Positions 17,280 to 58,972 of a stretch of 64,000 nt of DNA are shown here, piece after piece. The translations under genes were made by a program, and so were the position numbers. Every line of letters starts with the position of its first letter. Position 1 is the stretch's first letter. Source of the stretch: Octopus vulgaris (taxonomy: Eukaryota); NCBI GenBank assembly GCA_951406725.2, contig OX597832.1, forward strand, positions 23,250,001-23,314,000. The letters are read 5' to 3'. The notes beneath the pieces are model-generated. The model was not told the origin of the DNA, made no database searches, and saw only the letters and a list, made by a program, of their open reading frames with translations.

Positions 17280-17320
<41 letters not shown>

Positions 17321-17323
<3 letters not shown>

Positions 17324-17668
17324 TAAACAGCATGCAGTTTAATGTCGGAAAATTTCAAGCACTGCACTATCAACTCACGAATGCACTACAGCCTGCATAT
17401 AAAGGACCCAAGGCACTACAATCCCCAAGTCACAGGCAGTGAGAAACCGGGAGATCAATATGTGCAATAACGCATCATTTTATATGCACATTAACAAGAT
17501 TGTAGCAAAGTGCAGACAACTGGCCGGATGGATACTGAGGTCCTTCTAGACCAAAAAACTGACCCTGTGGAGTACATTTGTTCTCAGCCTCTTGGATTGT
17601 TGCTCCCCGTTATGGTCACCACATAGTGCCAAACTAACAGCGGAGCTTGAGGCAATCCTGTGCCACCA
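17321..17668 (+). mobile_element. Degenerate internal fragment of the same CR1-group LINE ORF2 (copy 4)
   Basis: Translates as NSMQFNVGKFQALHYQ...KIVAKCRQLAGWILRSF*...LTLWSTFVLSLLDCCSPLWSPHSAKLTAELEAI, homologous to the post-RT region of copies 1 and 2. Confidence 0.85.
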
Positions 17669-17893
17669 CACACGCGTACACAGTTACTGCCACACTCACA
17701 CATGCTAATACACAAGCGAGCGCACACATACCTACACATACAAACAGATACCTTCTTCTCTTACACTCTCCTCTCTTAGAAAGAACTTTGTATTCGTCCA
17801 TTCCTTCCGGTCATTTCAAAACGCAACTACATGAGGATGGTTGGCGATTTCTCTCCTACATCTTCTTTTTCTCTTGGACTTTCTTCTGTCTCC

Positions 17894-24790: not shown

Positions 24791-25208
24791 TCTTTTTATT
24801 CTTTCTTTTATTCTTTTACTTGTTTCATTCATTTGACTGCGGCCATGCTGGAGCACCACCTTTAGTCGAGCAAATCGACCCCAGGGCTTATTCTTTGTAA
24901 GCCTAGTACTTATTCTATCAGTCTCTTTTGCCGAACCGCAAAACACACCAGCATCGGTTGTCAAGTGATGCTGCGGTGGGGGGGGGGGGGACAAAAAGAC
25001 ACACAAACACAAATACACACACAAATATATATATATACATATATACGACGGGCTTTTTTCAGTTTCCGTCTACCAAATCCACTCACAAAGCTTTGGTCGG
25101 CCCGATGCCATAGTAGAAGACACTTGCCCAACGTACGAAGCTGTAGGAATGAACCCAGAACCATGTGGTTGGTAAGCAAGCTACATACCACACAGCCACT
25201 CCTACGCC
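24791..25208 (-). mobile_element. tRNA-derived SINE family A (CORE-like, OR2-like) with LINE-shared 3' tail
   Basis: Minus strand: GGAGTGGCTGTGTGGTA head, TGGGCAAGTGTCTTCTACTAT body, internal microsatellite, tail GGTGGTGCTCCAGCATGGCCGCAGTCAAATGA.TGAAACAAGTAAAAGA. Confidence 0.85.
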
Positions 25209-25615
25209 CATGTGTATGTATAGAGTGAGAAAGAGGGACAGAGAGCTCCTTTTGTATATGTATATATGTGCCTATATGTCTTTATATGTACACATATGCT
25301 TATACGTATAGGTCTCTATACGTATTATGTGCGTGCGTGCACTTTGTGAATGTGTGATGTATAAAAAAACTGATAGTTTTCACGAATTTCCCTTTTGGCT
25401 GATGAGATCTGTCCAGTGTTACTGTCATTTTCCTTTTCTTTTTCTTAATAAACCCACCCTTCCCAATTTACTCGACACTATTATTTCTGTATGCGATGTT
25501 CGCACTTTCTGTCGTATATTTTTACAAATATTTCACAACGCTTACGCTAACTAACACAGACATATATGTACGTTTCTTTATGATATGTAATACACATACA
25601 CACACACATACACAC

Positions 25616-27929: not shown

Positions 27930-28330
27930 GCTTGGCAGAATCGTTAGCACGCTGCATAAAATGCTTAGCGACATTTATTTCGTCTTTACGTTTTGAGTTC
28001 AAATCCCGCCGAGGTTGACTTCGCCTTTCTTTCTTACGAGGTCGACAGAATAAGCACCAGTTGAATACTGGGGATTGATGTAACCGACTTATACCCCTCC
28101 CCACCACCGAAATTGCTAACTTCAACATTTGAATGGCTTTTAAGGTGGCGAACGGGCAGAAACGTTGGCACACCGGGCGAAATGCAAAACGGTATTTCGT
28201 ATGTCTTTACGTTCTGAGTTCAAATTTCGCCGAGGTCGACTTTACTTTTCATCCTTTCGGGGTCGATAAATTAAGTACTGGGGTTGATCTAATCGACTGG
28301 TTTCCTCCCCCAAGATTTCGAGCCTTGTGG
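27930..28330 (+). mobile_element. Two diverged SINE family B copies
   Basis: GGCAGAA.CGTT.GCAC...GAGTTCAAAT..CGCCGAGGT.GACTT...GGTCGA twice. Confidence 0.75.
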
Positions 28331-30657: not shown

Positions 30658-30750
30658 ATGTATGTATGTATGTATGTATGTATGTATATATGTATGCATG
30701 TATGTATGTATACGTGTGTGTATGTATCTATATATGTGTATGTATATACA

Positions 30751-30976
30751 CTCTTTTACTCTTTTACTTGTTTCAGTCATTTGACTGTGGCCATGTTGGA
30801 GCACCGCCTTTAGTCGAACAAATCGACCCCAGGACTTATTCTTCGTAAGCCTAGTACTTATTCTATCGGTCCATTTTGCCGAGCCGCTAAGTTACGGGGA
30901 CGTAAACACACCAGTATCGGTTGTCAAGCGATATTGGTGGGGACAAACACAGACACACATACATATTCACACACAT

Positions 30977-31017
<41 letters not shown>

Positions 31018-31160
31018 CGACGGGTTTCTTTCAATTTCCGTCTACCAAATCCACTCACAAAGCTTTTCTCGGCCCGAGGCTATAGTAGAAGACACTTGCC
31101 CAAGGTGCCACGCAGTGGGACTGAACCCCGGACTATGTTGTTCGTAAGCAAGCTACTTAC
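30751..31160 (-). mobile_element. SINE family A, full length
   Basis: Head, CCTTGGGCAAGTG body, internal (TA)/(TG), tail GGCGGTGCTCCAACATGGCCACAGTCAAATGACTGAAACAAGTAAAAGAGTAAAAGAG. Confidence 0.88.
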
Positions 31161-32555
31161 CACACAGCCACTTCTACGCCTATATATATATGTGTGTGTG
31201 TGTGTATGTGTGTGTGTGTTTTTTTTGTGTATTTATATATATATATATATATGTGTGTTATGTGTGTGTGTGTGTATTTTCTTGTTCCGTTAAAGTAAGG
31301 TTAACAAGAAAGTACTCCATCCAATGACAGATAAATATAACTTTATGTACACAGTGTCCGTAATAGAGAATAAAATGGTAGAATTTATTCGGCATAATGC
31401 AACTATCGCGCCGAACATATGTAATTTATGAATCTCCAGTAGAACACCAAGTACTGTTTATCTCACGCAGGATGGAGTACCTTTTTTGTTGTTGATTTTT
31501 TCCTTAATGGACCCCTACATTATATGCCTCCAACACGTGGCTTTTAACTGTAAATTAATAGCTTGTGTCAGATCCCTTTCATTTTGTGTTTCCTTCCTGT
31601 TGGTTGGTATTATTTCTTTGTTTTTGTTGATCTCAGTGAAGATGTTTGCCCTGTATTTTTTATACTGCCTATACACTGTAGACGATGATTCTTAGAATAA
31701 ATGCAACCAAAATACCATTCCTTGTTATCACTGATTTAAGAATTAAAATTCTCTTTGATATCGTCTGCAGTAATGACTTTAAAAGAAGAAAGAGGCAATA
31801 TATAAATATTCCAATTGAACTAAATGGATGTAAAACTGTTGCGAGATAAGCAATAGATATATTTTAGGGATTGAAAAGGCACAAATCAGATGTATTTTTC
31901 ATGCCGTTGCACTCAAGCCGAATATAGGATCCACAAGATGAATGAGCATATTTAAATTATGTTTTTATTTAATGAACGCTTTTAATGAACAATTTTAATG
32001 AACACTTTGATCGGATCTGTTATTATTCTCCAGGAATTATCCACGAATCAGAAAAAACGAAATTATTTAACAATTTTTTTTTACAACGCAGTAAACTGGC
32101 AAAATTAACAGCAAATTCTTCGCCAAATTAAGCAATTCGTTTTCAAAAAATATTTAATAATTGGCGTGAATTCGAATTACGACGACAGCACAAATCTGCG
32201 ATGCATCGGTGTGTGGTGCGGCTAAGTTTGCTGACACAACTAAAACCAGGAAACAAATCAAACTAACCCTTGTATATATATATATATATATATAGTTAAT
32301 CCAAACATATATATGTATAATAGGGAGTATAATTTAATTGGAATAAATGTAATTGTAATACGAATTTAATTATAGCCACGAAAGGTACGCAGTTTTTTTA
32401 CTTGTTATATATTGATATTCATTTTTATACTTTTTGTGATCTAGTTATATGTTTTGTGAAAATACATTATATTTGTTATTTATGTTTTGGTTTATGTCTA
32501 TCATTGTTTGAGTTGCATAATAGTGGTTTTATCTCTAATTTATACATATATATAT

Positions 32556-34929: not shown

Positions 34930-35490
34930 TGAACTTGCAGCATCGCTAGAGCGTCAGAAATATATTGTTTACCGGGCGAAATCTTTACCGGTATTTCGCC
35001 TGCCGCTACGTTCTGAGTTCAACTTATAATCGACTTAATCCGTTTGTCTGTACTTGTTCGTTCTCTCTGTGTTTAGCTCCTTGTGGGTAGTAAAGAAATA
35101 GGTATTTCGTCTGCCGTTACGTTCTGAGTTCAAATCCCGCCGAGGTCGACTTTGCCTTTCATCGTTTCGGGGTCGATAAATTAAGTACCAGTCACGCACT
35201 GGGGTCGATGTAATCGACTTAATCTGTGTGTCTGTCCTTGTTTGTCCTCTCTGTGTTTAGCTCCTTGTGGGTAGTAAAGAAATAGGTATTTCAAATTGAA
35301 TCCCCTCTCTGTGTTTAACCCCTTGTGGTTAGTAAAGCAATAGGTTTCAGACACAATATCTCTCATGCTTTGTTCAAATTCCGCCGCGATCGACTTTGCC
35401 TACCATCATTTATCAGTCGATAAAGTGAGCACCATTTGTGTACTGGGGTCTCCTACCCAAAAATTTCAGGCCTGGTGCCTACAGTAGAAA
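34930..35490 (+). mobile_element. Cluster of tandem, partial SINE family B copies
   Basis: Repeated GGTATTTCG.CTGCCG.TACGTTCTGAGTTCAA and CTCTCTGTGTTTAGCTCCTTGTGGGTAGTAAAGAAATAGG blocks. Confidence 0.8.
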
Positions 35491-39486: not shown

Positions 39487-40636
39487 ACACACACAAAATG
39501 AAGGAGCATAGAGAACTAGAGAAACATTAAAACGCCTGATGTGAAAAAAAGTGGCCTTTGAATCAGCGACGCCAAAGCGGCAGCGACAAACCGGCTACGC
39601 CAAAATGTGTCACTTGCCTTTATAAATTTCCAAGACGGTTTCAAAATGTCTTAATTAGTTTCCTACAGTTTCCAAGACATGCTATATAGTTCTTAATTTT
39701 CACTTCGTATGTGGGTTTGGGGTACTCATTCTGTTTCGGACTGGTCCTTATGGAAGAAGTGCCTAATTACACTACGCCCACGACGCTACAAGAAACAGTA
39801 GATGGAGAGAGAAGACGGCTAATCGATGGGTTCCCATCATTTACATATCCATATCTCAACCAGACACTCGCCTTAATGGATTCCGTTATTTTTAACAAAA
39901 CTTTAATAATGAGGTCAGGTTCCTTACTTATTATTCCTCTTTAACCTATTCCACTATCGCGTGCAACACCTACAGTCATTAAACTGTCAAAATGTTTGTT
40001 ATCATACCAGAGATTATTTTAAGATTTTTATTACTCCCGTTAATCATTCTATTCCTGCTTCTGTTACGATAAAGATCGTCTATTCCATTTTTATTATATT
40101 TATAGTATTTTTATTGCCTTTGTTTTTGCTACAGAACTTGATTGTTCAGGATTGTGCGGTTTGGTATTTTGTAGCTTTCATTGGAAAGTTGCGGGATTGA
40201 ATATCATTTTGCATTAGGTATGTGTGTATGTTTGTGTGTGTGTGTGTGTGTAGCTGTGTGGATGTAGGGCGTAATTGATAGCTATAGCAACCACCGAAAA
40301 GGACGTCATTGCATTGTTTCAAATATCCTGCTCTCTCCATCGAGAGTGAGAAGCCGATACCGTGACAGCTTAGATTCCAAATGCCAGTAACGTCTCCTGA
40401 CCCTGTCAAAACACCTCAGAGATCTTCGAGGTATACATGTGGATGTGTTCAAAGAAAATTTAAACATTATTTTATGCGATTCCAAATGTATTCATATAGA
40501 GGCAAGAAACACCAAATAGACCAGCTATGTCCAACTCACTCTATCACGAGAACCAATCCGATCAGAGGGTCGTGGAACGAGTTTGCATGAACAAGCAGTA
40601 ACACTTTTGACGGCGCTCGAGCTGGGCCACAGCCTT

Positions 40637-40777
40637 TTATTCTATTATTCTTTTACTTGTTTCAATCATTTGACTGCGGCCATGCTGGAGCACCGCCTTT
40701 AGTTGAGCAAATCGACCCCAGGACTTATTCTTTGTAAGCCTAGTACTTATTCTATTGGGTCTCTTTTGCCGAACCGC
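40637..40777 (-). mobile_element. SINE family A, 3' part
   Basis: Minus strand ends GGCGGTGCTCCAGCATGGCCGCAGTCAAATGATTGAAACAAGTAAAAGAAT. Confidence 0.85.
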
Positions 40778-41389
40778 TGTATTTGTGTGCGTGTGTGTGT
40801 ATGAGGGTGAGCGTGTATCTGTGAGTACACGCGCGTGTGAGTGTATTTGGTGGTGGTTTGTTATTTATATATACGCATAGACATGTGCAGTTCTACCTGA
40901 CCGGCTAAATGGCTTCTTCTACTGTTCGTAACAGTTAGTAAGTGGCACTTGAAGTCCTAACGTGAATCTTACAATAAAGTTGACTCTACTGTCTCATATG
41001 ATTCATGTATGTATGTATGTAGAGGCACGAAGTGTGGTAAGAATTCCCTTTCAAAACTAGGAAAACCCGGTTTCGATGACATTATTTTGTAGCGATGTCA
41101 TGTGTGTGTCGCGTAGGGCATGATCAAACGACATTTATTTTAACTAACATCGTGTAGCGGGAAAATGTGGAGAAGACGGATGCTTAGTGTTTACCAGCGA
41201 TTCAAGGAACCGGATTCTTCGTACTGTTCCACGCTCAGTCACCTTGTGTTCACCCCAATATCATAATCTGCCATTTCTCAACTTAATTCGGTGAGGTGGG
41301 GTGTTTCGGTTCATTTGAGAATATGAAAGATCACATTTTGAATGAATTATACACACACACACACACACACACACATGTACATGGATGTG

Positions 41390-44916: not shown

Positions 44917-45253
44917 GGACTGCTGTCCCCATTGTGCCGACTGCTTCATCTCGGGCAAGGACGATGTACTGCAATAGCTTGGGTCTCAAGGGCCCACAGG
45001 TATTTAACTGTCTGCCGAAGCCTCTGAGGAGCCTTCATGGAGTACATGTAGACGATTTCAAACGTGAACTTGACCTTTGGCTCCTCGAGATCCCGGATGA
45101 GCCAATATCTAAGCGAGAAACTCAAAAGAGGGCAGTAGCATCGAATTCCGTCCTTCACCAGACGCCGCTCCGACAAAGGTAGAAAGTGGAAAGATGATTT
45201 CAATGGCGGTGCTCCAGCATGACCACAGTTATTCGATTGAAACATATAAGAGA
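44917..45253 (+). mobile_element. 5'-truncated copy of the CR1-group LINE (copy 3): ORF2 C-terminus + 3' UTR
   Basis: [46 protein letters not shown]...[11 protein letters not shown], then GGCGGTGCTCCAGCATGACCACAGTTATTCGATTGAAAC (45205-45243). (TA)n on both sides. Confidence 0.9.
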
Positions 45254-45270
45254 ATATATACATATATATA

Positions 45271-45341
<71 letters not shown>

Positions 45342-45419
45342 TTTACTCTTTTACTCTTTTACTTGTTTCAGCCATCCGGCTGAGGCCATGCTGGGGCACC
45401 GCCCTTGTTGCTACCCTCT

Positions 45420-48400
45420 CTAAGTCCAGTTTGCCGTGGCTGGCCACTGATCTAAGAGAGAGTTTGTAGCTGCTGCCCTTAGGTTACCTTCGTACCTTGC
45501 AGTGGGTTCATCTGGGATCCCGGAAAGCAGCTTGTCTAGATGTTTTTTGAAAATGTCCACATCCGCATCATGTAGATCTCTTAGTTTTCTTGGCAGTTTG
45601 TTGAACAGCTGAGGGCCCCTGAACCCCAGGCTATTACAGTATCTGCTCCTTACCCTGGATGTGGAAGACGGGACCTTTGGCACCACACAGTGACGACCTG
45701 TACGGGGATTGGAACAGCTCTCAATTCCAAAATTTGGTGCTAGTCCCTCCAGGATTTTCCATATGTATATCACTGCATATCTCTCTCGTCTTCGTTCCAA
45801 GGAGTACAAATTGAGTTCCCTAAGCCTCTCCCAATAGTTCTTTTCTTTCATGGTGGAAATCCTCTTGGTGAAATGTCTTTGGATTGTCTCAAGCTCTGTG
45901 GTTAGTTTGACACTATGCGGTGACCACAGTTGGGAGCAGTAGTCTAGGCGGCTTAGGACAAATGTCCTCCATAGTGTCAACATGGTCTCGCAGTCTCTTG
46001 TCCGGAATGTCCTCAGGATCCAGCCAGTGAGTCGTCTGCACATTGTCGCCACCTTCGCGATGTGTGAAGAAAAAGATGCATCGTCACTCATGTCTATCCC
46101 CAGGTCCCGTATTGATTTCGATACTGGGATTTCGATCCCTCCTGGACCAGTATAGTTGTGTTGTAATGTATATGTGTTTACAGCTTGATATTGTAAGGTT
46201 TGAAATTTACCAGCATTAAATTGCATGTTGTTGTCTTCAGCCCATTTGTATATGGCATCCAGATCTTGTTGTAAAAGGTCAGCATCAGCTGGGTTTTTGA
46301 TTGCCTGTGCTACCTTTGTGTCATCAGCATAGCTAGTGAGGGATGTTGTTTGTGCTACCAAGGGCATGTCAGAGAGCGCCACCAAAAACAGCAAGGGTCC
46401 CAAGACTGTGCCCTGTGGCACCCCGCTTGCTATTGGTGTCTTTCCCGAGAGGGCTCCATTGGCTGCAACCATCTGGCTTCTGTCCTTCAGGAAGTCATGT
46501 ATCCACTCACCTACTTTTCCTGTTATGCCGAGTCTGAGTAATTTGTGACATATCACTCCGTGGTCGACTTTGTCAAAGGCCTTCGCAAAGTCGAGATATA
46601 CCACATCCACCTGTGAGCGATCCAGTAGTTGTTTCAGTACCCAGTCGTAGTGTTGTAACAGCTGCGTAAGGCAGCTTCTTCCTGGGCGAAAGCCATGCTG
46701 TGTGTCAGTGAGACGGTTAGTTTCTTCGAGGAACGTGATCAGTTTTTTTCTGATGATTCGTTCCATGACCTTACTTATGTGTGACGTCAGGGAGACTGGC
46801 CTGTAGTTTTTGGCCTCTGCTCTACTCCCTCCTTTGTGGATAGGGCATATGGTGCCTTCTTTTAGCGCCCTGGGCAGTTTACCGTTAGCCAAGGAACCAC
46901 TGAAGAGCATCTTCAGTGGTCCCGCTAGGGCATGCCTGCATGTTTTTAGGAGGACTGCTGGGAATCCATCTGGTCCAGCAGCTGAGTTTATTCTCATTTC
47001 TTCTATGGCAGATATTACATCCCTCTCTGTTATGTCTATGTGGTCGATGGTTGTTGTTTGGTTTTGGAGTGTTGTGGCATCAAAGAAAACTTCTGGGTTT
47101 GTGATTTGCATGTGCCCCAGAGGGGATGTGAACACACTTTTATACTGTTCCTTTAGTATTTCACTTATCCCTTGGGGGTCCTCAGTTAGAGAGCCCTTTT
47201 TATCAAAGAGTGGGCCAATCTTGCAGTGTACCGAGGTGGTTTCTTTCGCAAATTTAAAGAAAGCTTTAGGGTTTGTTTTAATATTCTCTATGGCCCTGGC
47301 TTCTCTCTCTGCCCTCTCCTTCTCATAGGAAAGTTTGAGTGCAGTTTCCGTTTCAAAAAGTTTCAGGTGGAGTCCCTTATTGTTTCTCTGCCGTGCATTC
47401 AGTTGCTTCGAGAGCTTAGCTCTTCGCCTCATAAGTATTTTCCTGTCTCTGGGAATAACGTTCCTATGCCCGCTGGCTTTTTTCTCCGGGACAAACTTAT
47501 GGCATATGTTCTGTATTGTTGTCATGAAATGTTGGAAATGTGTGTTGGTCTCTTGTGTGGTGATGAAGTCACTCCAGTCATGTTTTCGGATCTCTTCGTT
47601 GATCTTCTTCCAGTTTGCCTTATGGAAGTTTAGACTGGATAGGCCTGTGGTATTTTCTAATGGCTGCGTCTCAACTAACTCTCTCATACCATATATCATT
47701 ACCTCTACTAAGTTGTGATCTGAGAGAATTGTAGGTGTTACCATTATGTTGTGGATGAGCATCGGGTTGCTTGTGAAACAGAGGTCCAAGACATTCTCAC
47801 CTCTTGTTGGCCGAAGCACTGCTTGTTCCATGAAAAACTTGCGTGTGAGAGCCAACAAGGACTCTGTCTGTCTCTGTTCAAGTGATGTCATTCCAGGGAG
47901 GAGATGGCCATCTGGCCATTTGACTTTCGGAAGGTTAAAATCTCCCAGCAGTAGAATGGTGTTACCCTGGTCCAGTTTGTCCAGGACTTCTTCTATTCTT
48001 CTGAGGCTATCTTCAAACACTCCTTCATGACTAGGGGTGTCTGGTGGCCGATATGTGACACATATTACTATTTTCGGTTGTTTCATGTGTACTATCAGTG
48101 TGTCACAGACTGAGTTTGAGTGTGTCAACAGTACTATGGGTGTGACATCTTCACGGACGTACAGGGCAACCCCACCATGAGTTCTTTCCTTCCTGTCTGA
48201 CCGAAAAACAGTATACTTTGGTACGTGTATTTCTGCATCTGCTATACTGCTTGACAGGTGCGTTTCAGTCAGCGCTATGCATATTGCATGGTTGCTTGTG
48301 CTTAAGTCCCTAAGGTAAGGAATTTTACTCATATTAGTGGGTTTCACCAGACCTCTGACATTCAGCAGAAGCACTGGTGAGATATTTGGGGTGTCAATAA

Positions 48401-48443
48401 AGGCTGTCGGTGTGGCACCTGGGCTGGTGTCAGTGGTGGCCAC
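45420..48443 (-). CDS. LINE ORF2: APE endonuclease + reverse transcriptase (~1000 aa; true start uncertain)
   Basis: LLLNVRG, LTETHL, YRPP, GDFN, SDH; NYRPVSLTS, YLDFAKAFDKVDH, GVPQGTVLGPLLF, YADD, RDLG, LYSLERRRERY. No stops; frame open up to 48692; first ATG only at 48332. Confidence 0.95.
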   Translation of the reverse strand: MATTDTSPGATPTAFIDTPNISPVLLLNVRGLVKPTNMSKIPYLRDLSTSNHAICIALTETHLSSSIADAEIHVPKYTVFRSDRKERTHGGVALYVREDVTPIVLLTHSNSVCDTLIVHMKQPKIVICVTYRPPDTPSHEGVFEDSLRRIEEVLDKLDQGNTILLLGDFNLPKVKWPDGHLLPGMTSLEQRQTESLLALTRKFFMEQAVLRPTRGENVLDLCFTSNPMLIHNIMVTPTILSDHNLVEVMIYGMRELVETQPLENTTGLSSLNFHKANWKKINEEIRKHDWSDFITTQETNTHFQHFMTTIQNICHKFVPEKKASGHRNVIPRDRKILMRRRAKLSKQLNARQRNNKGLHLKLFETETALKLSYEKERAEREARAIENIKTNPKAFFKFAKETTSVHCKIGPLFDKKGSLTEDPQGISEILKEQYKSVFTSPLGHMQITNPEVFFDATTLQNQTTTIDHIDITERDVISAIEEMRINSAAGPDGFPAVLLKTCRHALAGPLKMLFSGSLANGKLPRALKEGTICPIHKGGSRAEAKNYRPVSLTSHISKVMERIIRKKLITFLEETNRLTDTQHGFRPGRSCLTQLLQHYDWVLKQLLDRSQVDVVYLDFAKAFDKVDHGVICHKLLRLGITGKVGEWIHDFLKDRSQMVAANGALSGKTPIASGVPQGTVLGPLLFLVALSDMPLVAQTTSLTSYADDTKVAQAIKNPADADLLQQDLDAIYKWAEDNNMQFNAGKFQTLQYQAVNTYTLQHNYTGPGGIEIPVSKSIRDLGIDMSDDASFSSHIAKVATMCRRLTGWILRTFRTRDCETMLTLWRTFVLSRLDYCSQLWSPHSVKLTTELETIQRHFTKRISTMKEKNYWERLRELNLYSLERRRERYAVIYIWKILEGLAPNFGIESCSNPRTGRHCVVPKVPSSTSRVRSRYCNSLGFRGPQLFNKLPRKLRDLHDADVDIFKKHLDKLLSGIPDEPTARYEGNLRAAATNSLLDQWPATANWT

Positions 48444-49315
48444 CCTGGGTCCCTTGATTGTGGTGGTCTTGAGTGCTGTTGTGAGTGCCCCTGGCTCTGA
48501 AGACGATGTATCCAGGCCAGTTGTCCCACAATTTTCTCTGCTATTTCCACAAAATTTCTTTGTTCTGCTGCCGCCGTCTGCATTTCCTCTGCAAATGTGC
48601 GCCTTCTCCTTGTTGGGGCATTCCGCACTATGTCTGCATATTTCTGGGGCAGCTTGAATTTGTTCTGGTTTTGGTTTCGGTCTTGGTTTTGGTTAAGGCA
48701 TTTTGGTCGAGTGGGTTTGATGCAATTTCCATAGGGCCTGGGATGAGCGAACCTGCATCCTTCCCCTGTTTCTCCATGCCAGCAGGTTCCATTCCGGAAG
48801 AATTTGCATGTTATCTGGGTTTTCTTGTCCCCAGTTCCTCTCTGTTTTTTCTTCCTCCGTTGGACGGTTGTCCACTGGTTCCTTTCTGCATAGGTCTTTT
48901 CATCCGGCTGGTTATTTTCTGTTTCCCCATCGCCTCCTATCTGTTGTTTGCCCTGCTTGCCTTCTTCGACTGTGGCTGTGGGTGTGTCATTTTTTGACAC
49001 TCTGTGGTTGGTGTTTCCTGTTTCCATCTCTCTCTCTTTGTCTTTATCCACCTTGAGGACTTGGCTTAGCAAAGCCATGTGTGGTGCAATGAGAGTGTAG
49101 GCCCTTTCAACTTCTCTTCTCTTCCTCTCTACCTGCGCCAACGTCCTCATAAAGCCATGGCTTTTCAGGGTCGCCACTATGTTTTTAGTTGGTTGCGATC
49201 TGTCGGCCGAGGTCCATCCTCTGATGAAAACTTCCAGCTCTACTTTCGTCCAGTTACGCTGGCTTTTGTTGACGCCAGTGTTTGCATTTACCTCTAATTT
49301 TTGCATGTTGTCCAT
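48362..49315 (-). CDS. LINE ORF1, 317 aa: Myb/SANT-trihelix-like domain, CCCH zinc finger, YADIVR motif, C-terminal helix
   Basis: NWTKVELEVFIRGW...IVATLKSHGFMRTLAQVERK; CKFFRNGTCWHGETGEGCRFAH (48743-48808); homologous to 4995-5884. Confidence 0.88.
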   Translation of the reverse strand: MDNMQKLEVNANTGVNKSQRNWTKVELEVFIRGWTSADRSQPTKNIVATLKSHGFMRTLAQVERKRREVERAYTLIAPHMALLSQVLKVDKDKEREMETGNTNHRVSKNDTPTATVEEGKQGKQQIGGDGETENNQPDEKTYAERNQWTTVQRRKKKQRGTGDKKTQITCKFFRNGTCWHGETGEGCRFAHPRPYGNCIKPTRPKCLNQNQDRNQNQNKFKLPQKYADIVRNAPTRRRRTFAEEMQTAAAEQRNFVEIAEKIVGQLAWIHRLQSQGHSQQHSRPPQSRDPGWPPLTPAQVPHRQPLLTPQISHQCFC

Positions 49316-49473
49316 TCCGTTGTAGCGGGGAGAGAGAGAGAAGCTGTGAGGGAAAAAGGGAGAAGGGAGGAGAGATGAAGAGATTGTGAGGAAGGGAGGG
49401 TGAGAGAGAGGAAAAGAAGACTGTTTGGGGAAAGAGAGAGAGAGGGGTGAGAGAGAGGCAGGGAAGGAAAGCG

Positions 49474-50042
<569 letters not shown>

Positions 50043-50044
50043 CA

Positions 50045-50361
50045 GAGGGCGTGGCTTAGTCGTTAGGGCATTCGGCTCATGATCGTAAGGTTGAGAGTTC
50101 GATTCCCGGCGACGCGTTGTGTCCTTGAACAAGACACTTTTTTTCACGTTGCTCAGTCCACTCAGCTGGCAAAAATGAGTTGTACTTGTATTTCAAAGGG
50201 TCAGCCTTGTCACTCTCTGTGTCACGCTGATTATCCCCGAGAACTACGTTAAGGGTACACGTGTTTGTGGAATGCTCAGCCATTTGCACGTTAATTTCAC
50301 GAGCAAGCTGTTCCGTTGATCGTATCAGCTGGGACCCTCGTCGTCGTAACCGGCAGAGTCA
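50045..50361 (+). mobile_element. tRNA-derived SINE family C (OK-like), full length
   Basis: A-box TGGCTTAGTCG, B-box GTTCGATTCC, GTGTCCTTGAACAAGACACTTT body; 3' GAGAACTACGTTAAGGGTACACGTG...CCCTCGTCGTCGTAACCG shared with 55440-55555. Confidence 0.88.
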
Positions 50362-50409
50362 TTTAATATATATAACATCTATATATAATAATAATAATAA
50401 TAATAATAA

Positions 50410-52329: not shown

Positions 52330-52810
52330 TGTGTTTGTGTGTGAGTATGTATATTTATATATATGTATGTAAGTATGTAATTATGTAAGTATATATTTGT
52401 GAATATTGATAAATATATATTCTTGCTTATGTAAATCTGAATACCGTGTATCTTAATTCAAAATTTTTATTCGCACATAAATGCATGCATACATACACAC
52501 ACACATACACAAACACACACATACATACAGAAACACACACACTCGTTTATATATTTATGCTGTAATATATATATATTGAGAGGCAGACGAATGTTTGTAT
52601 CTCTCTCACATCACGTGCTAAACAACAGCAGCTAAAATATATACATTAACTGTAATGGGCAGAAACAGCAAGAGGCTGGCTGTGAAACTTCGCCATCCCT
52701 CGTCATGCAATTACAAAATTTCTGATCTAATCTCCTAATTAAAAACAAAACACAGCGCAAAAACAAAAAGAACGTAAATGGGATTCCTTCCCACAAAATT
52801 AAAAATAATA

Positions 52811-53042
52811 CTTATTTCTTTACTACCTACAAGGGGCTAAACACAGAGGACACAAACAAGGACAGACAGACGGAATAAGTCGATATCGACCCCAGTGCGT
52901 AACTGGTACTTAATTTACCGACCCCGAAAGGATGAAAGGCAAAGTCGACCTCGGCGGAATTTGAACTCAGAATGTAACGGCATACGAAATACGGCTACGC
53001 ATTTCGCCCGGCGTGCTGACGTTTCTGCCAGCTCGCCGCCTT
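52811..53042 (-). mobile_element. SINE family B, full length
   Basis: Minus strand GGCGGCGAGCTGGCAGAAACGTCAGCACGCCGGGCGAAATGC...GAGTTCAAATTCCGCCGAGGTCGACTTTGCCTTTCATCCTTTCGGGGTCGGTAAATTAAGTACCAG...GTAGTAAAGAAATAAG. Confidence 0.88.
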
Positions 53043-53654
53043 AAAAATAATACTATTAACATCATCCCTTGTACTTCTCTTGGACACAAGAACATTACAT
53101 TACTTTATATTTCATCACGTTATATGTTACGTCATGTTGCATCACGTTACGTCATGTTGCATTTCACGTTACATTACATCACGTTTCATTTCAGAGAATC
53201 TAGCTACGAAATATGAATTTTACTTATGATATACTGAATCGCATCAAACGCCGGGATGAATCCGTAAATGGCGGCTAAGTTACATTACCTTCAAGAGAGG
53301 CTACAATAATGGCGGCGTGTCGATATTTGCCTTCAGATATCACACAGAAGTATGCTTCTCTACCTTCGTATTATTTCGAAGAATTCTATATTTCCACTTT
53401 TACTTTTCTAATAATTCTCTGCCATTTTTCTTACACATAGGAACGCCTTCTTTCGTACGTAGTTATAACAAGGCTGTTATCTTCCTTTTCAAAGGTTTGG
53501 CTTAAGCAAATAGAGTTGTATCACTTCCTTGGTGTTAGATGTTTAAAGAATGGGTTTCTATTTCCCTAATTGAAAGTTTACACTCAGGATAAATTACTAT
53601 CAACAACGCCTTCATATGCAATGGCATATGGGCAAACATGTGGCAGTTTATATA

Positions 53655-58559: not shown

Positions 58560-58972
58560 GGCGCAGGAGTGGCTGTGTGGTAAGTAGCTTGCTTACCAAC
58601 CACACAGTTCTGGGTTCAGTCAAACTGCGTCGCACCTTGGGCAAGTATCTTCTACTATAGCCTCGGGCCGACCAAAGCCTTGTGAGTGGATTTGGTAGAC
58701 GGAAACTGAAAGAAGCCCGTCGTATATATGTAGATATATATGTGTGTGTGTGTGTATGTTTGTGTATCTGTGGTTGTCCCCCTAGCATCGTTTGACAACC
58801 AATGCTGGTGTGTTTACGTCCCCGCTACTTATCGGTTCGGCAAAAGAGACCGATAGAGTAAGTACTAGGCTCACAAAAAATAAGTCCTGGGGGTCGATTT
58901 GCTCGACTAAAAGGCGGTGCTCCAGCATGGCCGCAGTCAAATGACTGAAACAAGTAAAAGAGAGTAAAAGAA
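58560..58972 (+). mobile_element. SINE family A, full length, LINE-shared tail
   Basis: GGCGCAGGAGTGGCTGTGTGGTAAG head, GGGTTCAGTC B-box-like, CCTTGGGCAAGT, tail GGCGGTGCTCCAGCATGGCCGCAGTCAAATGACTGAAACAAGTAAAAGAGAGTAAAAG. Confidence 0.9.

What the first reader, a model, noticed from the sequence alone, without database searches (positions are those of the whole stretch)
45337..49473. Intact LINE that appears to be the mobilising partner of SINE family A (LINE/SINE system)
Seen: the last ~65 nt of this LINE (GGCGGTGCCCCAGCATGGCCTCAGCCGGATGGCTGAAACAAGTAAAAGAGTAAAAGAG) match the tails of SINE A copies at 24791, 30751, 40637 and 58913-58972 (GGCGGTGCTCCAGCATGGCCGCAGTCAAATGACTGAAACAAGTAAAAGAG...), including the 8-nt AGTAAAAG repeat. 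Differences concentrate in a covarying stem-loop. The motif follows the ORF2 stop in three different LINE copies, so it is LINE-borne and not an adjacent SINE insertion. Knowledge: SINEs borrow partner LINE 3' ends. Inference: an autonomous, possibly active element with an atypical ORF1, overlapping ORFs and a parasitic SINE. I do not know of this pairing being described but cannot check.
Basis: partly seen in the sequence, partly recalled or inferred. Interest (0 to 1): 0.82.

Follow-up and report, generated by a model that had tools for sequence, protein, structure and literature searches.

The report
LINE with virus-like ribosomal frameshift signal
A young jumping gene (a LINE, likely from an octopus) shares its tail with a very abundant SINE, which is an ordinary kind of pairing, but it and its distant relatives also keep a virus-like slippery sequence between their two genes that likely makes ribosomes slip back one base and build one fused protein.

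Summary
The tail match is real. The element is a young, 5'-truncated copy of a CR1-like LINE family: 12 of 40 copies examined keep both ORFs open. It is not clearly the SINE's partner. An older sister family (a fragment lies at 44925-45262) fits the SINE hairpin better (57 of 63 tails), and also its age and insertion context. This family fits only the end repeat better (52 of 63). The SINE borrows from the lineage, a known kind of pairing.

The unexpected part is the ORF junction. ORF2 has no AUG before its first endonuclease motif and overlaps ORF1 in the -1 frame. An in-register slippery heptamer (A AAT TTT, 48557-48551) sits at a site where 10 relatives, down to 36% identity, have T TTT TTA/G, 1-4 codons after the last -1-frame stop. 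Among non-redundant LINEs with a -1 overlap, 24 of 27 have one (4.9 expected). ORF2 is therefore likely made as an ORF1-ORF2 fusion by -1 frameshifting; this is untested. A review states this mechanism for Dictyostelium TRE elements, and this scan noted a similar junction on other DNA. I found nothing in print for CR1-type LINEs.

The parts
45337..49474 (-). 5'-truncated copy of a young CR1-like LINE family (family 1), both ORFs open
49316..49474 (-). remnant of the pyrimidine-rich 5' UTR; longer copies extend at least 1.1 kb further, and a second 5' UTR type exists
48362..49315 (-). ORF1, 317 aa: weak Myb/SANT-like N-terminus, one CCCH finger, then a segment conserved across families that lies after the slip site
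   Evidence: (both Pfam hits below cut-off)
48551..48557 (-). in-register -1 slippery heptamer A AAT TTT (ORF1 codons R-N-F)
   Evidence: unchanged in 34 of 39 family copies
48479..48531 (-). predicted hairpin starting about 19 nt after the heptamer; possible stimulator, not conserved in relatives
   Evidence: z -4.0; z -2.2 on a longer stretch
48441..48443 (-). in-frame GTG in good Kozak context, a rival non-AUG start for ORF2
   Evidence: sequence; (38 of 39 copies)
45420..48692 (-). ORF2 frame (APE endonuclease + RT), -1 to ORF1; first motif Asn at 48362-48360, first ATG only at 48332
45337..45403 (-). 3' tail: two hairpins and 8-nt AGTAAAAG repeats, followed by (TA)n
58560..58972 (+). full-length SINE A copy (tRNA-like head by eye, internal microsatellite, LINE-like tail)
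24794..25222 (-). SINE A copy
30743..31189 (-). SINE A copy
40634..40778 (-). 5'-truncated SINE A copy
44925..45262 (+). 3' fragment of an older sister LINE family (family 5) whose tail stem equals the SINE's
4995..8925 (+). copy of a second young sister family (family 2, about 65% ORF2 identity), broken ORFs, with T TTT TTG at the homologous slip site
49474..49750 (-). SINE B lacking its 3' end, fused to the LINE's truncated 5' end (1-nt microhomology)

Best explanation
This is a recently active CR1-like LINE whose second protein is likely made by a -1 ribosomal frameshift at A AAT TTT, which would give an ORF1-ORF2 fusion of about 1,298 aa, and whose 3' hairpin-plus-repeat tail is shared with SINE A, which was likely mobilised by this LINE lineage rather than mainly by this young family. 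Shown: open ORFs, -1 overlap, no AUG before the first endonuclease motif, heptamer conservation and position, tail sharing, ages and flanks. Inferred: most ribosomes read ORF1 to its stop (317 aa). A minority slip after codon 255 and continue 1,043 codons through a linker into endonuclease and RT, so that the ORF1:ORF2 ratio is set as for Gag:Gag-Pol. ORF2 then binds the 3' hairpin for target-primed reverse transcription, mostly into (TA)n in this family, and SINE A RNA mimics that hairpin.
For: The first ATG lies 12 codons after the start of the LLNVRG motif. The motif's Asn sits at the position of L1 residue 14 (that N14 is essential is recalled). All 11 members of the window's RT clade for which junction DNA was held have an in-register heptamer at the homologous F-L/F-V site with an open -1 frame after it (SH-aLRT 100, quick tree). 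In 10 of 11 it lies 1-4 codons after the last -1-frame stop, and 7 of 11 have no ATG before the endonuclease. Chance codon choice for the ten T TTT TTA/G cases is about 1e-15 by each element's own codon usage (without L206). Across 27 non-redundant elements with a -1 overlap, 24 have an in-register heptamer, against 5 and 5 in the other two phases and 4.9 expected from upstream ORF1. 15 of 27 lie within 8 codons of the stop, against 0.7 expected. The motifs include A AAA AAC, G GGA AAC, T TTA AAC and C CCT TTA, not only homopolymer runs. Tail evidence.
Against: No conserved 3' stimulatory structure: mean z -0.33 downstream against -0.17 upstream over 27 sites. Four of 11 clade members have an in-frame ATG after the heptamer, family 2 has one just before the first motif, and family 1 has GTG/CTG codons there. 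In old copies L203 and L206 the site is T TTT TTT followed at once by a -1-frame stop, so slipping there would be sterile. L208, L229 and L230 have damaged sites. Three of 27 -1-overlap elements have no heptamer, and 22 of 49 elements were classed otherwise: 8 as +1, 8 same-frame, 6 without ORF1, among them three octopus copies with broken ORF1. The elements are related, so the probabilities are overstated. No protein or ribosome data. In the window copy the heptamer is 45 codons from the last stop (21 in many other copies).
Confidence: 0.78

Rival explanations
1. ORF2 is made as a separate protein by termination-reinitiation or leaky scanning at an AUG or near-cognate codon close to the ORF1 stop, as in L1 or SART1, and the heptamer is a by-product of a conserved F-L peptide.
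For: ORF1 stops within about 30 nt of the first endonuclease motif in most clade members. Family 2 has ATG four codons before the Asn; family 1 has GTG there and a Kozak-context GTG at 48443. Reinitiation is the demonstrated route in SART1 (PMC3708506).
Against: It does not explain why the -1 frame opens 1-4 codons before the heptamer and stays open for 40-137 codons, nor the fixed codon choice. No start codon is shared among L226, L228, L243, L244, L245 and L248. Both routes could coexist.
Confidence: 0.15
2. An extra base is added by polymerase slippage or RNA processing at the U-run, so that some transcripts have ORF1 and ORF2 in frame.
For: The commonest site is a run of six T. One genomic copy (L060) has an extra A at the site and fused ORFs.
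Against: Family 1 and distant relatives use non-homopolymer heptamers that fit tRNA re-pairing. The L060 indel may be an assembly error.
Confidence: 0.05
3. One reading: family 1 itself is the main mobiliser of SINE A.
For: The terminal AGTAAAAG repeat matches family 1 best in 52 of 63 SINE tails, and the loop ends in ATG in both. Family 1 is the only family seen with this repeat among the eight or so families inspected.
Against: The hairpin core fits family 5 in 57 of 63 tails. SINE copies are older. (TA)n flanks: 45 of 51 for family 1 against 12 of 62 SINE ends (Fisher p 6e-14) and 6 of 30 in a young SINE subfamily. Age and selection on long insertions could bias the flank comparison.
Confidence: 0.25

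Closest known systems
CR1-clade LINEs, including the 13 recently active CR1 families (787 insertions) listed for Octopus vulgaris in PMC13282606
   Same: APE + RT ORF2, two ORFs, short 3' end with hairpins and a tandem-repeat tail, 5' truncation; the RT motif DFAKAFDKV falls in CR1-labelled references in 7 of 8 occurrences
   Different: It sits in a distinct long-branch clade; ORF1 has CCCH fingers with PHD or Myb/SANT-like heads; no frameshift signal is described in the papers I saw. Whether this family is among the 13 could not be checked.
Mollusc SINE/CR1 pairs: BivaV-SINE2 and BivaCORE-SINE1 with CR1-14_CGi (PMC4824008); Vhc_1 SINEs with CR1 LINEs (PMC4758252)
   Same: A tRNA-type SINE carrying a CR1-derived hairpin tail with compensatory change
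   Different: Cephalopod-type host; several sister LINE families share the tail and split the match
Octopus SINEs OK, OR1, OR2 (Ohshima and Okada 1994; seen only as citations in PMC4824008, PMC4758252, PMC3531059; the name OK is recalled)
   Same: tRNA-derived octopus SINEs; OR1 or OR2 is listed as a CORE-SINE, and SINE A has a CORE-like stretch (recalled motif)
Dictyostelium TRE5-A and TRE3-A
   Same: APE-type non-LTR elements stated to need a -1 frameshift for ORF2 (PMC5911963, figure legend)
   Different: Different lineage (zinc-finger C-terminus, oligo(A) tail, tRNA-gene targeting); no conserved heptamer across families is given in the passage seen
Retroviral gag-pol -1 frameshift sites (HIV-1 U UUU UUA, MMTV A AAA AAC; recalled)
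   Same: Same heptamer classes, same structural-gene / enzyme-gene layout
   Different: Non-LTR element, no protease seen, no conserved stimulatory hairpin or pseudoknot detected
SART1 UAAUG coupling and L1 reinitiation (PMC3708506 introduction)
   Same: Bicistronic LINE RNA that needs a low-level route to ORF2
   Different: Those give a separate ORF2 protein; here ORF2 overlaps ORF1 and often has no AUG

Membership tests
CR1-clade LINE | ORF2 with APE endonuclease and RT | tested here: met
   Pfam PF14529, PF03372, PF00078; best PDB match L1 ORF2p
CR1-clade LINE | separate ORF1; no RNase H or C-terminal zinc finger; 3' hairpin with short tandem repeats instead of poly(A) | tested here: met
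   (no such domain hit); the feature list is from general knowledge
CR1-clade LINE | RT phylogeny groups with named CR1 references | tested here: inconclusive
   No named references were available to the tree. One motif occurs in CR1-labelled RTclass1 entries in 7 of 8 cases, but five longer motifs of this element had no hit
CR1-clade LINE | ORF1 with PHD and/or esterase domain (typical, not universal) | tested here: not met
   Window ORF1 has neither. Clade relative L243 has PHD above cut-off and L226 weakly; L244 and L248 had no hit
Programmed -1 ribosomal frameshift site | X XXY YYZ heptamer in register with the upstream ORF, conserved beyond protein need | tested here: met
Programmed -1 ribosomal frameshift site | downstream ORF in the -1 frame, open from the site, without its own start | tested here: met
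   7 of 11 clade members and 16 of 27 overall lack an upstream ATG
Programmed -1 ribosomal frameshift site | 3' stimulatory structure 5-9 nt downstream | tested here: inconclusive
   Not conserved; family 1 has a hairpin 19 nt downstream; pseudoknots and protein stimulators were not tested
Programmed -1 ribosomal frameshift site | measured frameshifting or transframe protein | not testable with these tools
   needs a reporter assay, ribosome profiling or mass spectrometry
SINE/LINE partner pair (SINE A with family 1) | shared 3' terminal sequence and structure | tested here: met
SINE/LINE partner pair (SINE A with family 1) | best match among the genome's LINEs | tested here: inconclusive
   Tie over 50 nt: family 1 best in 28, family 5 in 19, both in 15, family 5 with another in 1, of 63; not all families were sampled
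SINE/LINE partner pair (SINE A with family 1) | same age and same insertion signature | tested here: not met
SINE/LINE partner pair (SINE A with family 1) | trans-mobilisation by ORF2 | not testable with these tools
   needs a cell assay
tRNA-derived CORE-SINE (OR1/OR2 type) | tRNA-related head with A and B boxes, CORE domain | tested here: inconclusive
   Box-like motifs by eye; ARAGORN and Rfam found no tRNA; reference sequences unavailable

The most novel reading that the evidence does not exclude
A large part of the CR1-type LINE radiation makes its enzyme as a Gag-Pol-like ORF1-ORF2 fusion by programmed -1 frameshifting, with a whole PHD/CCCH-ORF1 clade fixed on the HIV-type U UUU UUA site and no conserved RNA structure behind it. 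This would be a general third answer to how LINE ORF2 is translated, and it would mean that ORF2 starts are mis-annotated across the group.
Probability: 0.6. Interest if true: 0.78.

Novelty: new variant of a known kind. Interest (0 to 1): 0.62.

Why it matters
How ORF2 is translated from bicistronic LINE RNA is called unclear in PMC3708506, and the worked examples are reinitiation types. A conserved, positioned slippery heptamer turns the question into a short reporter test and predicts a new protein form, an ORF1-ORF2 fusion that would tether RNA-binding fingers to the RT. It also predicts that proteins called from the first ATG lack the first endonuclease strand; several database hits do start after it. 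The SINE side is ordinary in kind, but it names the likely LINE lineage behind roughly 300,000 SINE copies (63 tails in 600 kb) and shows that tail identity alone picks the wrong family or ties.

Tried and rejected
Proto2, RTEX or RTE identity was considered from memory and dropped: there are two ORFs and CR1-type motifs, and PMC10294476 finds Proto2 and RTE-X nearly confined to bivalves. RTE-2_OV (PMC9115989) is a single-ORF element and not this one.

The ESM Atlas gave no usable hit for ORF1. A single-sequence PDB search of the endonuclease found nothing. Pfam did not extend its match over the first strand (profile position 22 against 24), so that point rests on the L1 alignment. ARAGORN and Rfam found no tRNA in the SINE head. 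No paper held the tail motif as text.

Expression: no RNA holder is on record. Contigs from four runs guessed to be RNA cover the element, one in a single piece, with no joint and no indel at the slip site. This is not evidence of expression, and contigs drop rare variants.

The careful tree did not finish; the quick tree is used. A genome-wide screen for a LINE with the exact SINE tail was not achieved, and the ORF junction of family 5 was not seen. Target-site duplications could not be read inside (TA)n. Any of these may already hold both elements.
Full report
Setting. The window lies in G000, a 2.80 Gb assembly with about 30 large contigs, rich in microsatellites. From this and from recalled octopus repeat content I infer an octopus-like host; this was not tested.

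The element. 45337-49474 (minus strand) holds ORF1 (48362-49315, 317 aa) and an ORF2 frame open from 48692 to 45420, with endonuclease and RT domains. A search with its 5' part gave 40 scored places, the window included; I fetched the other 39. The best are 99.7-99.8% identical over 4.1 kb, and 12 of the 40 keep both ORFs open. These are top hits, biased to young copies. Longer copies share at least 1.1 kb more 5' sequence, and a second 5' UTR type joins upstream of 49399 in L050-L061, so the window copy is 5'-truncated. RT motifs point to the CR1 group: DFAKAFDKV occurs 8 times in the RTclass1 supplement of PMC3708506, 7 times in CR1-labelled entries. O. sinensis has many CR1 clusters (PMC10294476 file 19, first 15 rows seen), and 13 recently active CR1 families are listed for O. 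vulgaris (PMC13282606). No named references could be put in a tree. In a quick tree of 63 RT segments the element falls in a 25-row clade with SH-aLRT 100. ORF1 has sub-threshold Myb/SANT and CCCH hits. Of 5 clade relatives scanned, one has PHD above cut-off, one weak PHD, one Myb/SANT and two no hit.

The tail and the SINE. The tail motif occurs 7 times in the window against 0 expected. It was found in 30 of 39 family copies and folds as two hairpins. In 60 evenly chosen 10-kb stretches (600 kb) there were 88 motif hits: 63 SINE A, 2 LINE and 23 unclassified, mostly older SINE variants. That gives roughly 300,000 SINE A copies by extrapolation. About eight LINE families carry related tails. 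The family of the 44925-45262 fragment (family 5) has the same second stem as the SINE. Over the first 39 nt it scores best alone for 57 of 63 SINE tails; over the repeat, family 1 does for 52 of 63; over 50 nt they tie. Distance to column majority: SINE median 6.8% (0 of 63 at 2% or less; subfamily structure inflates this; nearest-neighbour median also 6.8%), family 5 3.6% (20 copies), family 1 0.3% (29 copies). A young SINE subfamily is at 2.5% (30 copies). Ends followed by at least four TA units: family 1 45 of 51, family 5 5 of 20, SINE 12 of 62, background 428 of 5000; the young SINE subfamily 6 of 30 and the 58913-like set 4 of 30. So the SINE tail derives from this lineage, but age and insertion context fit family 5 or an unsampled relative better than the present family 1 copies. 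CR1-tailed SINEs with compensatory stem changes are described in bivalves (PMC4824008; PMC4758252). I found no statement of an octopus pair, but could not see Ohshima and Okada 1994, Albertin 2015, Repbase or Dfam.

The ORF junction. ORF2 is in the -1 frame of ORF1, and its first ATG (48332) lies 12 codons after the start of the LLNVRG motif. A profile alignment puts that Asn at L1 residue 14 (its catalytic role is recalled). At 48557-48551 ORF1 reads A AAT TTT, unchanged in 34 of 39 copies. At the same E-x-x-[SN]-F-[LV] site, sister families read T TTT TTG (family 2, L237) or T TTT TTA (L211; L226 at 42% and L228 at 38% ORF2 identity), each 2-4 codons after the last stop in the ORF2 frame. 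A metagenome scan (best 80 of 433 relatives, from 3 of 64 parts of the collection) gave five clade members with the junction (L243-L246, L248; 36-43% identity). All five have T TTT TTA 1-3 codons after that stop, and four have no upstream ATG. For statistics I used 49 elements (7 from G000, 42 of the 80 metagenome loci with enough upstream DNA), none above 75% identity. An automatic rule classed 27 as -1 overlap, 8 as +1, 8 as same-frame and 6 as lacking ORF1; three G000 copies with broken ORF1 fell outside the 27 and were read by eye. Of the 27, 24 have an in-register heptamer in the overlap, against 5 and 5 in the other phases and 4.9 expected from the upstream ORF1 rate (26 in 8,209 codons). 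15 lie within 8 codons of the stop (0.7 expected), and 16 have no ATG. Given the amino acids, the codon choice in the ten T TTT TTA/G clade cases has a joint chance near 1e-15 (-15.9 in log10 with L206, which I drop). Shared ancestry makes these numbers too small, but the elements are 25-65% identical. The predicted product is 255 + 1,043 = 1,298 aa.

Against. No conserved downstream structure (27 sites, mean z -0.33); only family 1 has a clear hairpin, 19 nt downstream. Four of 11 clade members have in-frame ATGs, and family 1 has GTG and CTG candidates. Old copies L203 and L206 have a -1-frame stop right after T TTT TTT, and L208, L229 and L230 have damaged sites. Three of 27 have no heptamer. 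Nothing here measures translation.

Literature on the mechanism. PMC3708506 (passages) calls ORF2 translation unclear and cites SART1 stop-start coupling. PMC5911963 (passages) states that TRE5-A and TRE3-A require a -1 frameshift. PMC5405496 suggests +1 shifting, reinitiation or readthrough for Paramecium elements. The frameshifting review PMC5009743 (passages; first 300,000 of 449,034 characters) mentions only HeT-A and TART among non-LTR elements. Searches found no report of slippery heptamers in CR1-type LINEs; most subscription papers and Repbase Reports are outside this library. Also seen as passages only: PMC9115989, PMC3531059, PMC7846101, PMC7175516; PMC10294476 passages and section 9; PMC13282606 parts 1-2 of 3. 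This scan earlier noted a similar heptamer junction in another genome (e1-7350016), unchecked by me; it supplied the TRE lead.

Verdict. The main result is a likely programmed -1 frameshift shared by this LINE clade and many CR1-like relatives: a new variant of a known mechanism, directly testable.

Noticed in passing
window 49474-49750 (-) joined to 45337-49474 (-): A SINE B copy lacking about 55 nt of its 3' end is fused head-to-tail to the LINE's truncated 5' end with 1-nt microhomology, and the whole unit is flanked by (TA)n on both sides. It may be a template-switch chimera of the U6/L1 type. An intact twin (97%) lies inverted at 50044-50370.
   Followed up: partly
L031-L049 versus L050-L061: Family 1 has two unrelated long 5' UTRs, each with internal tandem duplications, on a 98% identical body, which suggests promoter replacement. 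An 18-nt indel in ORF1 (317 against 311 aa) largely tracks them.
   Followed up: partly
family 1, family 2, L237 and L228 families: Nearly all young copies end in, and many start from, (TA)n tracts; possible microsatellite targeting or tail-seeded microsatellites. Several loci hold two different LINE families in one TA tract (L046, L056, L040, L062, L218).
   Followed up: partly
window 4995-8925 (+): Family 2 has many copies 100% identical over 1 kb, several sharing the same ORF1 break; it looks at least as young as family 1.
   Followed up: partly
L251-L318 (metagenome loci): Distant CR1-like elements use other junction types: same-frame ORFs split by one stop (8 elements, possible readthrough) and +1 arrangements, which cluster in the tree.
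   Followed up: no
L070-L129, unclassified hits: Older SINE variants with the same tail but CCAATG or CTAATG loops and GATAAAA repeats, suggesting successive SINE waves on successive LINE families.
   Followed up: no
L060 (junction): One extra A at the slippery site puts ORF1 and ORF2 in frame; a natural indel or an assembly error.
   Followed up: partly
window 10358-10773, 28127-28298, 35025-35450, 52807-53046: A further dispersed repeat family with 85-90% identical copies, not examined.
   Followed up: no
window 17320-17675 (+) and 40274-40474 (+): Additional degraded fragments of the same LINE group.
   Followed up: no
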